Positions 12,001 to 15,000 of a stretch of 64,000 nt of DNA are shown piece after piece. The position numbers were made by a program. The stretch's first letter is position 1. The number at the start of each line of letters is the position of its first letter. The DNA comes from an uncultured Pelagibacteraceae bacterium (lineage in GTDB: Bacteria > Pseudomonadota > Alphaproteobacteria > Pelagibacterales > AG-422-B15): the NCBI GenBank assembly GCA_902544065.1, contig CACCAS010000001.1, forward strand, positions 151,088-215,087, read 5' to 3'.

Positions 12001-15000
12001 AAAAATGGAGTAATAAATGTTTGTATCTTTTACCGATTGGGAATTTGACGGAAATGTTGAAAATGCAGTTGAAAATATGAAAGGTTTTTGGCCTGAGATG
12101 AAAAAGCATGGAGCAACTAATATGCGTGCAACAGTTACGGGAGAAAAGACACTCAGAACGATGACTATCTGGAGCAGCGAAGAACAAGTGAAAGCTAACA
12201 TCGATGAAATTAGAGCAGCGGCTGGTAAAGCTGTAGGCATGACCACAACAGGTGGCATGATGGGTACAGTCGCAGTTGAGCTTGATTGATTTATTAATGA
12301 GAAGCAGTTTTTGTAATTGAGTGGTGCCCCCACACGGACTTGAACCGCGAACCTATTGATTACAAATCAATTGCTCTACCAATTGAGCTATAGGGGCAAT
12401 AAGGCTTTCAAGGGTTAGTAAAATCTGGGACACCACCGGGCCACCATCACTAGACTCTTGAAAGTGTGTTCATGCTTTATAAACTACGTATAAAATTATC
12501 ACAAACAAAACTTAAGTTATTGAAAAGTGTCATCTTTTAGACTATGAACCTTTTAAATATTGAAAAGCATAGAAATAGGCGACCCCAACATCAATTGCAC
12601 TATGAATAATAAAGGTTTCACTCTCATTGAACTTCTCGTCGTCGTTGCGATTATTGGAGTATTGGCTGCAGTTGGAGTCCTGGCGTTCCAAGGTTTTATG
12701 GAAAGAGCAAAAATTAATAGCACAAAATCTCAACATAAAACTGTCGTAAACTACATGCGAACTGAATTCCAAAGATGTTCTCTAGGAGAGGATCTCTTGA
12801 CTTATAAAAAATGGCATTCTACTGGAAATGAATGGAATATTATTGAAACAAGTGTTCTGTGCAGTGCTGATGCAGATATCCATGCTCAAAGTATTGATGA
12901 TCACTTTGAAGCAGAAGGTTTCATGAACTCTTTTGGATATGGAAGAGCAGTTGAAAGAGTCAACGTTGATATAGATCCTACAAGCCCAGGCTTTACAAAT
13001 ATATTTTGTGTTAGTGATAAGCAATGTAAAATTAAGACACATATTCACGGTTATCGCTTCTGGACAGATATGGTGACAAAAGAGTAATATAAAATATATG
13101 GCTCAAAAAGGCTTTACCCTCATTGAACTTCTCGTCGTCGTTGCAATCATAGGAGTATTAGCGGCGGTTGGCGTAGTAGCTTTTAATGGATTTATAAATA
13201 CTACTAAGGTTAATGCGACGATTCAAAGTCACAATACTGTGGTTAAATTTATAAGAACAAGTTTAATGAAATGTAATATATCTGGAGAACTTATATTAAA
13301 GCAGAATCCTCGAACAGATACAGGCAACCTATGTGTTTATGTTTCAAATCCAAATCCTGGTGCATTGATCTCTGCTTTTTGGAATCACTTAACAGCTGGA
13401 GAATATTGTAATACATACGGGTTAACCCATAACTCTGGTACATGTCAAGAAGGAGTCGCTCAAGGTGGTGCAATAGGCGCTGGTAATTTAGGTGAGGTAA
13501 AAATGATTACAGTTGGAACTACAATTGTAGTAGATACTCACTACAAGCAGGGTGAAAATTTAAATGATGTTATCAGAATTGAATAAAGGCTTCACCCTCA
13601 TTGAACTTCTCGTCGTCGTTGCAATCATTGGAGTACTGGCGGCTGTTGGGGTAGTAGCCTTCAATGGATTCATTTCAAGTTCAAAAAATACAGCATGTCA
13701 GGCTGAACATAGCAACAGAAGCAAATCGGCTCAATTGAAAATTAGTGAAAATATGCTTAATGGACAAAATATCACATTTACAAATATTGACGGAAATAAC
13801 GACACGATAAATTTTAATAGCAATACTTGGATACTTGTTTCGGGTTTATCTTCATATTTAAAATCTGAATATAAGAACCCAAATGGACCACTAAACGGAG
13901 CATGGGATCACTCTACGTATTTTGTAGATATTAATCAAATACCCACATCATGTACAGCCACTCAAATTGGCTACTCCTTTATGACAGGCATAAATGACAC
14001 ACGAACAATAAAATTTGGAACTTGTTGTAAAGTTGATCAACCGGCAATAGAAGAAAAGTTTAAATGGTAAATCGATATGTTTTAATATTTATTCTATGAC
14101 CCATAAAGGTTTCACTCTCATAGAACTTCTCGTTGTAGTTGCAATTATCGGAGTACTGGCAGCTGTTGGCGTAGTTGCATTTAATGGATTTATGAACTCT
14201 GCAAAAGAGAATAGTACAAAAGCTCAACATCAATCAGTTGTAAAGTTCATGCAAGTTCAATTTACAAGATGCTCGCTCGGCGAAACAGAATTATCATATA
14301 ATAAACCAAATTGGGATGGTTCTGCCTGGGGAGTGATTACGGTAAATGAATCTTGTCTGTCAACAGCGGACACACACGCCAAAAAATTTGACGATCATTT
14401 CGAAGCTGAAGGTTTTTTAAATCCATTCAATACAGAATCAAGAGCAGTTGAAAGAAAAGAAAATTACTTAGAGCCGTCAAGGGCAGGGGCCATATATATT
14501 TTTTGTCCAAATGATACTTCGTGTGAAATAAGAACAAAAATTAATAATAGCTTATGGCTGAAGGACACAGTATCAAAAGAATAAATAATATGCAAAAAGG
14601 CTTCACCCTAATTGAACTCCTCGTCGTGGTTGCAATCATCGGAATTCTGGCGGCAGTTGGGGTGGTCGCATTTCAGGGATTTATATCAAAATCTAAGCTT
14701 AATACATGTAATAGTAATTTTTCAACAGTATCAAAGTACGTTGGGACAACAATATTACAGTGTGAGACGCAAGGAGGCGTTTGGCCTTTTACAGAAACTA
14801 ATCAAGAAGCTTGTAATGTATGGCCCCCAGAAGTTCTAGCTACACAAATAGGTGCACATATTAATTATATGGGATTTAGAAACCCCTATGATGGAAGAGA
14901 GCTGGTTTTAAGTGGCTCAGATCCAAGCATAGGTGGTATATCAATTCATTCTCCGTCAATCACCTCTAAAGAAATTTATGTTACGAGTTGTTGCCAAGAC

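What the first reader, a model, noticed from the sequence alone, without database searches (positions are those of the whole stretch)
12427..12445. Paired GGGMCACC motifs with 11-nt phasing occur just inside both ends of the pilus region
GGGACACCaccGGGCCACC lies at 12427-12445, 30 nt from the intact tRNA-Thr and inside a 60-nt imperfect hairpin at 12405-12464. GGGCCACCaatGGGCCACC lies at 35698-35716, 122 nt from the tRNA 5' half. Both are on the same strand, both are in non-coding DNA, and both have one helical turn between repeats. A GC-only 8-mer appearing three times exactly, plus once with one mismatch, in this arrangement is very unlikely by chance in such AT-rich spacers. Same-face tandem sites suggest a dimeric DNA-binding protein. 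That could be a regulator of the pilin array and the tRNA, a recombination accessory factor, or remnants of element ends. The only other near match I noticed is a single AGGCCACC at 21648-21655, inside coding sequence.
Basis: seen in the sequence. Interest (0 to 1): 0.55.

Follow-up and report, generated by a model that had tools for sequence, protein, structure and literature searches.

The report
Likely integrase arm sites flanking pilus island
The paired GC-rich octamers are real and sit just inside the two ends of a 23-kb type IV pilus gene block inserted into a threonine tRNA gene of a SAR11 marine bacterium, where they most likely mark the docking sites of a phage-type integrase that is no longer present.

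Summary
GGGACACCaccGGGCCACC (12427-12445) and GGGCCACCaatGGGCCACC (35698-35716) are the only GGGMCACC copies in the window. No other phased pair occurs in about 355 kb of related DNA, apart from a 99%-identical strain.

The window is from SAR11 (Pelagibacteraceae). The 23.4-kb type IV pilus cluster lies between exact 42-nt direct repeats of the 5' part of tRNA-Thr(UGU). Relatives have the uninterrupted site: SpoU, tRNA-Thr, prepilin peptidase. No integrase lies in the segment.

The motif pairs sit in strain-specific DNA just inside each repeat, in the same orientation. In tRNA orientation they lie at -48..-30 and +122..+140 from the core.

Cultured pelagiphages are known to integrate by supplying the 5' part of a SAR11 tRNA. 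Six integrase-bearing viral contigs carry an attP with this same tRNA-Thr 5' part. Their attP is flanked on both arms by same-orientation repeats at 11-12-nt phasing, with a different unit (TTTGCACTA).

My best reading (0.55) is arm-type integrase sites of an integrase-less island, possibly relics. A pilin or tRNA regulator is poorly supported. The same octamer and phasing also occur upstream of terS in HTVC023P-type pelagiphages; that link is unresolved.

The parts
12427..12445 (+). Site 1: GGGACACC-acc-GGGCCACC, two octamers at 11-nt phasing. In tRNA orientation it lies at -48..-30 from tRNA-Thr position +1 (proposed near arm).
35698..35716 (+). Site 2: GGGCCACC-aat-GGGCCACC, same strand and phasing. 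In tRNA orientation it lies +122..+140 after the end of the tRNA-identical core (proposed far arm).
12360..12401 (-). Left copy of the exact 42-nt direct repeat: tRNA-Thr positions 1-38 plus 4 nt upstream. It is part of the intact tRNA gene (att core, tRNA-proximal junction).
   Evidence: (family D7)
35838..35879 (-). Right copy of the 42-nt repeat: a displaced 5' part of tRNA-Thr that ends exactly at the 3' edge of the anticodon loop. It is still attached to the native promoter-side flank, which is conserved in relatives.
12322..12397 (-). Intact tRNA-Thr(UGU). Its 5' part and whatever promoter drives it must now come from the inserted DNA.
12402..12601 (.). Left insertion-specific non-coding arm (200 nt) between the repeat and the first pilin gene. 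It contains site 1, the imperfect hairpin at 12405-12464 and a weak promoter-like TTGTGA-17-TATAAA on the minus strand (12504-12476, inferred by eye, not called by the scan). It has no homolog in relatives except the near-identical L024.
35441..35837 (.). Right insertion-specific non-coding arm (about 400 nt) between the last pilin gene and the displaced tRNA 5' part. It contains site 2 and a G+C-richer 140-nt stretch (35695-35837). No homolog in any fetched locus.
12602..35415 (.). Cargo: a complete type IV pilus cluster. It holds 8 pilins, prepilin peptidase #2, PilY1, minor pilins, a PilT-like ATPase, a PilM-PilN fusion, PilO, PilQ, PilB, PilC and 3 more pilins. There is no recombinase.
11918..11974 (-). 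Displaced 3' part of tRNA-Thr (positions 22-76, 2 mismatches). It is the scar of a separate, classical 3'-side insertion that carries only ORF90 (12017-12289). It is present in relatives that lack the pilus cluster, so it is independent of the finding.
   Evidence: (D5)

Best explanation
The two octamer pairs are the arm-type binding sites of a heterobivalent tyrosine integrase of the pelagiphage kind. They are preserved in the left and right junctions (attL/attR) of an integrase-less genomic island that carries a whole type IV pilus cluster.

Proposed mechanism: a circular DNA carried an attP made of site 2, about 120 nt of spacer, the 5' part of tRNA-Thr (positions -4 to 38), about 26 nt of spacer, and site 2's partner, site 1. 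It recombined with the chromosomal tRNA-Thr within the shared 42 nt, most likely in the anticodon loop, where the identity ends.

This left the native 5' part stranded next to SpoU. It rebuilt the tRNA from an element-borne 5' part and placed one pair of arm sites just inside each end. The integrase acted in trans or has been lost, so today the sites may be relics or may still allow mobilisation by a related integrase.

Shown: the insertion, the repeats, the empty site, the position, phasing and orientation of the motifs, the absence of an integrase, and the existence of analogous attP sites. Inferred: that an integrase binds the octamers, and the crossover position.
For: 1. Insertion: exact 42-nt direct repeat of tRNA-Thr positions 1-38 plus 4 nt at 12360-12401 and 35838-35879.

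2. Empty site: relatives have SpoU, intact tRNA-Thr, then peptidase #1 or ORF90 with no pilus cluster (L005 and L018).

3. The same pilus cluster (PilC 97% identical) lies elsewhere in L025, next to tRNA-Leu(TAG) and trigger factor, with no motif. The DNA specific to the window arrangement is exactly the two arms that hold the motifs.

4. Other cargo at the same position in L017, L021 and L012 has neither the tRNA 5' repeat nor phased repeats, so the motifs go with the repeat-forming event.

5. The host is SAR11. Cultured HTVC019P-type pelagiphages integrate into SAR11 tRNA genes with 11-46-bp cores at the 5' end or middle, and the phage supplies the tRNA 5' part (bioRxiv 10.1101/410191).

6. 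Six 30%-GC IMG/VR contigs (L188-L193) carry an integrase (phrog_1, E = 6e-23 and 6e-27) 0.7-0.9 kb from a partial tRNA-Thr (positions 1-45, no full tRNA). That core is flanked by same-orientation direct repeats at 11-12-nt phasing on both arms: TTTGCACTA three times at -120..-92 and twice at +34..+50. In both the viral attP and the window junction there is one near arm (about 45-85 nt) and one far arm (about 120-155 nt) from the anticodon loop.

7. The pair is rare: none in about 355 kb of related DNA. Similarity between sites is confined to the octamers.

8. From established knowledge of lambda-type integrases: arm-type sites are short direct repeats, often adjacent at about one helical turn, within about 150 bp on both sides of the core.
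Against: No integrase or integrase remnant lies in the island or elsewhere in the 64-kb window.

No element carrying GGGMCACC arms together with an integrase was found. All GGGCCACC-N3-GGGCCACC hits in IMG/VR are in contigs with GC of 0.51 or more.

The window arms show no significant sequence similarity to the viral attP arms (z about 0), so the support is architectural only.

Conservation could not be tested. The only other copy (L024) is about 99% identical, and site 2 was found in no other genome.

The near and far arms are on opposite sides compared with the viral attP.

A 42-nt identity could also mediate rare homologous recombination.
Confidence: 0.55

Rival explanations
1. The pairs are operator sites for a transcription factor that binds tandem direct repeats one helical turn apart (as OmpR/PhoB-type response regulators do). 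It would control the first pilin gene and/or the divergent tRNA-Thr.
For: Site 1 lies in the 204-nt divergent region between tRNA-Thr and the first pilin, 157 nt upstream of the pilin start. Octamers with a 3-nt spacer give the 11-bp phasing typical of winged-helix response-regulator boxes (established knowledge).
Against: Site 2 has nothing to regulate. It lies after the last pilin gene and before a dead tRNA fragment on the other strand.

The orthologous pilin L1 in L025 (93% identical) has an unrelated upstream region with its own TTGACA-type box and no motif.

No other pilin array boundary in relatives has the motif. No regulator gene lies in the cluster. The promoter scans give no site that the motif would overlap.
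Confidence: 0.1
2. The octamers are recognition sites for a pelagiphage DNA-binding protein, such as a small terminase or a replication or regulatory protein. The island ends would then mimic a phage packaging or iteron site, allowing phage-assisted transfer of the pilus island, or acting as a decoy.
For: At least 80 AT-rich IMG/VR contigs of the HTVC023P pelagiphage type have GGTGTCCC followed by three GGGACACC units at the same 11-nt phasing, plus two more copies, directly upstream of terS. These phages infect SAR11, the window's clade.

The unit changes between phage lineages (GGGACACC, AGACCC, TTTCCTAG), as expected for specific protein-binding iterons. That makes a same-clade match to the host octamer hard to dismiss.
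Against: I found these arrays by searching with the motif, so there is ascertainment bias.

Three of the four window units are GGGCCACC, which never occurs in the AT-rich phage arrays. All GGGCCACC pairs in IMG/VR are in contigs with GC of 0.51 or more.

The window lacks the inverted copy, the second cluster and the GC hairpin of the phage array.

The window shares no other sequence with 1.43 Mb of fetched viral DNA except the tRNA part. The function of the phage array itself is unknown.
Confidence: 0.1
3. The pairs have no DNA-protein function. Either they are a neutral short duplication carried along with the inserted DNA, or they matter only as RNA, because site 1 lies in the loop of a hairpin in the probable tRNA-Thr leader.
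For: The hairpin at 12405-12464 folds at about -21 to -22 kcal/mol on both strands. The rebuilt tRNA must be transcribed from island DNA, so site 1 is probably in its leader. There is no independent conservation evidence.
Against: The hairpin is only marginally better than shuffles (z = -2.2), and site 2 has no equivalent. Rfam finds nothing at either site.

The sharp confinement of similarity to the octamers, with differing spacers and flanks, and the placement at both ends, are not expected for a decaying duplication.
Confidence: 0.15

Closest known systems
attP/attL/attR of HTVC019P-type pelagiphages (tyrosine integrases targeting SAR11 tRNA genes; bioRxiv 10.1101/410191)
   Same: Same host clade. 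The core lies in the 5' part or middle of a tRNA gene, and the incoming DNA supplies the tRNA 5' part. The core length (42 nt) falls within the reported 11-46 bp. tRNA-Leu(TAG), another reported target, borders the same pilus cluster in L025.
   Different: No integrase, RNA polymerase or any phage gene lies between the repeats. The cargo is a cellular type IV pilus cluster. tRNA-Thr(UGU) is not among the reported targets. Arm sites were not described in that paper.
Uncultured viral contigs L188-L193 (IMG/VR) with an integrase plus a partial tRNA-Thr(1-45) attP
   Same: The same tRNA and the same half form the core. Short direct repeats at 11-12-nt phasing sit in the same orientation on both arms, within about 150 nt of the core, with one near arm and one far arm.
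   Different: The unit is TTTGCACTA, not GGGMCACC. The near and far sides are swapped. There are three copies plus an inverted copy rather than two plus two. The arm sequences share no significant similarity. An integrase is present.
Lambda-type heterobivalent integrase arm-type sites (lambda P1, P2, P'1-3; P2, L5 and Tn916 analogues)
   Same: Short repeats distinct from the core, adjacent at about one helical turn, on both sides of the core and inside the element (comparison from established knowledge).
   Different: Binding is not shown here. No integrase, Xis or IHF sites are identified. The relative orientation rules of those systems were not checked.
Integrase-less att-flanked islands (cis-mobilisable elements of streptococcal ICEs; degenerate tycheposons and additive tRNA islands of pelagic bacteria, bioRxiv 10.1101/2020.12.28.424599, PMC10872708)
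   Same: Cargo is flanked by a full and a partial tRNA copy, with no recombination genes, at a tRNA that is a hotspot for different cargo in different strains.
   Different: Mobilisation in trans is not shown. Tycheposon hallmark genes are absent. The repeat is the 5' rather than the usual 3' tRNA part.
terS-upstream iteron arrays of HTVC023P-type pelagiphages (seen here; not described in PMC9599517)
   Same: The octamer GGGACACC(A) and the 8+3 = 11-nt phasing match. The host clade is the same.
   Different: The phage arrays have an abutting inverted copy, three direct copies, an AT-rich spacer, two further copies and a GC hairpin, next to terS. The window mostly uses GGGCCACC and has two isolated pairs 23 kb apart.

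Membership tests
Site-specific (tyrosine integrase) insertion with attL/attR | Direct repeat of the core sequence at both ends of the inserted DNA | tested here: met
   Exact 42-nt repeat at 12360-12401 and 35838-35879
Site-specific (tyrosine integrase) insertion with attL/attR | Uninterrupted target site in related genomes | tested here: met
   L005 has SpoU, tRNA-Thr, peptidase #1, GspC. L018 has peptidase #1, ORF90, tRNA-Thr, SpoU
Site-specific (tyrosine integrase) insertion with attL/attR | Target gene (tRNA) rebuilt by element-borne sequence | tested here: met
   Intact tRNA-Thr at 12322-12397 (73 bits to RF00005). The displaced 5' part keeps the native upstream flank
Site-specific (tyrosine integrase) insertion with attL/attR | Integrase gene inside or next to the element | tested here: not met
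   All ORFs between the repeats are pilus genes or have no Pfam hit. No recombinase anywhere in the window regions tested
Heterobivalent integrase arm-type sites | Short repeats, different from the core, on both arms inside the element within about 150 bp of the core | tested here: met
   Pairs at -48..-30 and +122..+140 relative to the core, both inside the repeats
Heterobivalent integrase arm-type sites | The integrase N-terminal domain binds the repeats | not testable with these tools
   Needs EMSA or footprinting with a cognate integrase, which has not been identified
Heterobivalent integrase arm-type sites | Repeats conserved among independently diverged copies of the element | tested here: inconclusive
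   The only second copy (L024, site 1) is about 99% identical overall. Site 2 was found nowhere else
HTVC019P-type pelagiphage prophage | SAR11 host and a tRNA 5'-part core supplied by the element | tested here: met
   Host named Pelagibacteraceae. The repeat covers tRNA positions 1-38. Behaviour described in 10.1101/410191
HTVC019P-type pelagiphage prophage | Phage genes (integrase next to attP, RNA polymerase, structural genes) between the att sites | tested here: not met
   Only pilus genes are present
Tycheposon | Hallmark tyrosine recombinase plus replication or PICI-like module | tested here: not met
   None present
Response-regulator tandem box (OmpR/PhoB type) | Direct repeats at 10-11-bp phasing placed upstream of a regulated promoter at each occurrence | tested here: not met
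   The phasing is met, but site 2 has no downstream gene on either strand, and the orthologous pilin in L025 lacks the box
HTVC023P-type pelagiphage terS-upstream array | Inverted copy plus three direct units, AT-rich spacer, two more units, GC hairpin, next to terS | tested here: not met
   The window has only two direct units per site, mostly GGGCCACC, and no terS

The most novel reading that the evidence does not exclude
A complete type IV pilus machine in SAR11 is a mobilisable, integrase-less cargo island. It moves between tRNA genes (tRNA-Thr here, tRNA-Leu(TAG) in a strain with 97%-identical PilC) using pelagiphage-type recombination in trans. Its end sites share octamer specificity (GGG[A/C]CACC at 11-nt phasing) with the terS-upstream arrays of abundant lytic HTVC023P-type pelagiphages. 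The same DNA-binding specificity would then link island mobility, or packaging, to phage infection.
Probability: 0.1. Interest if true: 0.75.

Novelty: new member of a known kind. Interest (0 to 1): 0.42.

Why it matters
SAR11 is the most abundant bacterial clade in the surface ocean and is usually described as almost free of mobile elements and prophages.

This locus shows a whole surface-appendage system (pilins, assembly ATPases, secretin) sitting as a recently inserted, att-flanked block at a tRNA. The same block lies at another tRNA in a close strain. That points to phage-type site-specific recombination as a way for SAR11 to gain, lose or relocate pilus clusters, which are likely phage receptors, DNA-uptake devices or adhesion devices.

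The paired octamers give a concrete, testable handle: predicted arm sites for finding the responsible integrase and for detecting excised or empty sites in metagenomes.

If they are only relics, the finding is an ordinary island scar.

Tried and rejected
- I first assumed the organism was a SAR86-like gammaproteobacterium. Source names on identical proteins show it is Pelagibacteraceae.
- Sigma-54/PilR idea (GG-N10-GC fits the phasing): the hexamers match the consensus poorly and no pilin-proximal -24/-12 site was seen by eye. Dropped.
- Rfam gives no family at either site. The promoter and terminator scans give nothing that explains the motif.
- The genome-contig scan with peptidase #1 found only 31%-identical unrelated phyla.
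- Exact look-ups of SpoU, pilin R3, PilC and pilin R2 found nothing on record.
- The reconstructed attP junction was searched in IMG/VR (exact), GenBank phages and PLSDB plasmids. Only tRNA-Thr genes matched.
- Apparent similarity of the window's left arm to the viral P arm (hairpin plus AAAGCCTATT): not significant against shuffles. Rejected as homology.
- L025's tRNA-Leu flank against phages: only tRNA-Leu matched.
- A literature search on the raw octamers returned only primer noise.
- The flanking-gene association for GC-rich GGGCCACC arrays was too noisy because of spurious ORFs.
- DNA-uptake-sequence or REP-like dispersed repeat: rejected, because the motif occurs only in these pairs in 419 kb.
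- Transposon ends: rejected, because the two ends have the same, not inverted, orientation.
- Resemblance of GGGNCACCA to the tRNA-Thr 3' end (GGGGCACCA): opposite strand, different central base, 11-nt tandem. Judged coincidental.
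Full report
**Observation**

The two sequences are exactly as described: GGGACACCaccGGGCCACC at 12427-12445 and GGGCCACCaatGGGCCACC at 35698-35716, both on the + strand. GGGMCACC has 4 matches in the window against 0.66 expected, and none of 100 shuffles reached 4.

A look-elsewhere test shows that phased pairs of AT-rich octamers are common in this sequence. 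Phased pairs of G+C-rich octamers occur only 0.1 times per shuffle, yet the window has two loci with the same unit. Similarity between the sites is confined to the octamers: 1 difference in 16 unit positions, 2 of 3 spacer bases differ, and the flanks are unrelated.

The hairpin at 12405-12464 is real but only modestly significant (z = -2.2 on both strands). Site 2 has no counterpart. Rfam and the promoter and terminator scans explain neither site.

**Context in the window**

tRNA-Thr(UGU) is at 12322-12397 on the minus strand. An exact 42-nt direct repeat, comprising tRNA positions 1-38 plus 4 nt upstream, lies at 12360-12401 and 35838-35879. The identity stops exactly at the 3' edge of the anticodon loop.

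Between the repeats lies a complete type IV pilus cluster: 8 pilins, prepilin peptidase #2, PilY1, minor pilins, a PilT-like ATPase, a PilM-PilN fusion, PilO, PilQ, PilB, PilC and 3 more pilins. There is no recombinase.

A third tRNA piece (positions 22-76, 2 mismatches) at 11918-11974, together with the 90-aa ORF at 12017-12289, is a separate classical 3'-side insertion. It occurs in relatives that lack the pilus cluster.

**Organism**

Proteins identical to the window's EF-Tu and ORF90 are named Pelagibacteraceae bacterium. The window is therefore SAR11. My earlier working assumption of a SAR86-like gammaproteobacterium was wrong.

**Comparative evidence**

- Metagenome and SAG contigs show the uninterrupted site. 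L005 has SpoU, intact tRNA-Thr, peptidase #1, GspC. L018 has T2SS, peptidase #1, ORF90, tRNA-Thr, SpoU, tuf.
- The spot is a hotspot. L009, L019 and L012/13/17/21 carry other genes between tRNA-Thr and SpoU, but without a tRNA 5'-part repeat and without phased repeats.
- L024 has ORF90, tRNA-Thr, site 1, pilins, peptidase #2 and PilY1. It is about 99% identical to the window there, so the motif's presence is uninformative.
- PilC relatives at 97-84% identity (L025-L030) have the same cluster core, with pilin cassettes shuffled between strains.
- In L025 the window's last right pilin (R3) and first left pilin (L1) are adjacent, 90 nt apart. There is no motif and no tRNA piece, and the cluster ends at tRNA-Leu(TAG) followed by trigger factor.
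- The DNA peculiar to the window arrangement is thus 12402-12601 and about 35441-35837, the two arms that hold the motifs. These arms have no homolog in any fetched locus except L024.
- In 419 kb of window plus related DNA there is no further phased pair.

**What is known that fits**

Zhao et al. (bioRxiv 10.1101/410191) showed that HTVC019P-type pelagiphages integrate into SAR11 tRNA genes (Cys, Leu-TAG, Leu-TAA, Arg). The cores are 11-46 bp at the 5' end or middle of the tRNA, and the phage supplies the tRNA 5' part. That is the otherwise unusual footprint seen here. Partial-tRNA-flanked islands, many of them degenerate, are described for other pelagic bacteria (10.1101/2020.12.28.424599; PMC10872708).

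**Direct analogues**

An IMG/VR scan for the tRNA-Thr 5' part found six 30%-GC contigs (L188-L193). They contain tRNA positions 1-45 but no full tRNA, 0.7-0.9 kb from an integrase (phrog_1, E = 6e-23 and 6e-27).

This attP is flanked by TTTGCACTA direct repeats at 11-12-nt phasing in one orientation on both arms: three copies at -120..-92 and two at +34..+50, plus an inverted copy at about +86. The repeats are kept in both contig families (with my index correction, 100).

The window's reconstructed junction has its pairs at -48..-30 and +122..+140. Measured from the anticodon loop, both systems have one near arm (about 45-85 nt) and one far arm (about 120-155 nt), on swapped sides. The arm sequences themselves are not significantly similar, so the support is architectural, not homology.

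**Interpretation**

The octamer pairs are best read as arm-type sites of a pelagiphage-like tyrosine integrase, retained in the attL and attR of an integrase-less pilus island (confidence 0.55). Integrase binding, the crossover point and present-day activity are inferred.

Against this reading:
- No integrase is present.
- No intact element with these units exists in IMG/VR.
- There is no informative conservation.

**Rivals**

A pilin or tRNA regulator is unlikely, because site 2 has no target and the L1 ortholog elsewhere lacks the box. A neutral or RNA-only role cannot be excluded.

A surprising lead is that at least 80 AT-rich IMG/VR contigs of the HTVC023P pelagiphage type carry, upstream of terS, GGTGTCCC followed by three GGGACACC units at the same 11-nt phasing, plus two more copies. 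The unit differs between lineages: AGACCC in some, and TTTCCTAG in HTVC023P itself. These phages infect SAR11.

However, the window mostly uses GGGCCACC, which never occurs in AT-rich viral contigs. The window also lacks the rest of the array layout and shares no other sequence with the viral loci. I rate a functional link at about 0.1.

**Verdict**

It is a new member of a known kind, an att-flanked tRNA island with putative arm sites. It is of moderate interest because of the host (SAR11), the cargo (a whole pilus system that sits at different tRNAs in close strains) and the unexplained octamer match with abundant pelagiphages.

Noticed in passing
window 11918-12320; L012-L024: ORF90 (12017-12289) encodes a 90-aa protein found with identical sequence in a 404-member cluster on 236 contigs. 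It occurs in at least four different genomic contexts at 95-99% nucleotide identity. It is always preceded by a tRNA-Thr anticodon-arm-like piece (CCTATTGATTACAAATCAATTG), which together with a TATAAT forms a TTGATT-17-TATAAT promoter-like box. At tRNA-Thr it sits between the intact gene and a displaced 3' fragment. It looks like a tiny mobile or repeatedly relocated gene cassette.
   Followed up: partly
L035-L152 (IMG/VR), e.g. L083 11520-11980; L187 2320-2867 (HTVC023P MN698239.1 11319-11866): HTVC023P-type pelagiphages have a conserved region of about 350 nt, divergent from terS. It contains one inverted and three direct 8-mers at 11-nt phasing, an AT-rich spacer, two more copies and a GC hairpin. 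The unit is lineage-specific: GGGACACC, AGACCC, or TTTCCTAG. It is probably a packaging, origin or regulatory iteron array, and it is not mentioned in the main paper on these phages (PMC9599517).
   Followed up: partly
L188-L193 (IMG/VR), e.g. L191 700-960, L190 3520-3770: Uncultured 30%-GC viral contigs carry an integrase and an attP made of tRNA-Thr(UGU) positions 1-45, flanked by TTTGCACTA arm-like repeats. This implies phages or satellites that integrate into SAR11-type tRNA-Thr by replacing its 5' part. That target is not among those reported for cultured pelagiphages.
   Followed up: yes
window 12602-16580 and 33967-35415; L024-L034: The tandem pilin genes behave as shuffled cassettes. 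Order and content differ between strains whose PilC is 84-97% identical, and assemblies break inside the arrays.
   Followed up: partly
L025 14715-14740: TTGACCA-atat-TTGACCA (11-nt phasing) lies about 100-115 nt upstream of tRNA-Leu(TAG), on the pilus-cluster side, in the strain where the cluster borders that tRNA. This could be chance (roughly p = 0.03). No phage match was found.
   Followed up: partly
L024 1-4300 versus window 5900-11974: In L024 the T2SS segment next to the tRNA fragment is inverted and ends in a truncated gspF, while the adjacent 700 nt are about 99% identical to the window. This is either a real inversion or a single-cell-assembly chimera.
   Followed up: no
L012, L017, L021 (e.g. 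L017 3109-4850 and 10460-12468): Genes for intimin/invasin-like beta-barrel proteins (IAT_beta), with a partner ORF, are inserted both 3' of tRNA-Leu(TAA) and 5' of tRNA-Thr in the same genomes. That is a second kind of cargo at tRNA hotspots, without detectable tRNA remnants.
   Followed up: partly
window 11126-11890 and 16589-17374: There are two prepilin peptidase paralogs. One belongs to the T2SS backbone outside the insertion and one is inside the pilus cluster. The inner one has only one close cluster (98%) in the protein database, after which identity drops to 60% or less.
   Followed up: partly
L057, L136, L146, L155, L157, L162, L164, L169 (IMG/VR): Multi-copy GGGCCACC arrays at 11-nt phasing, some with inverted copies, occur in several unrelated GC-rich viral contigs. 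Their coding status and neighbouring genes were not resolved.
   Followed up: partly
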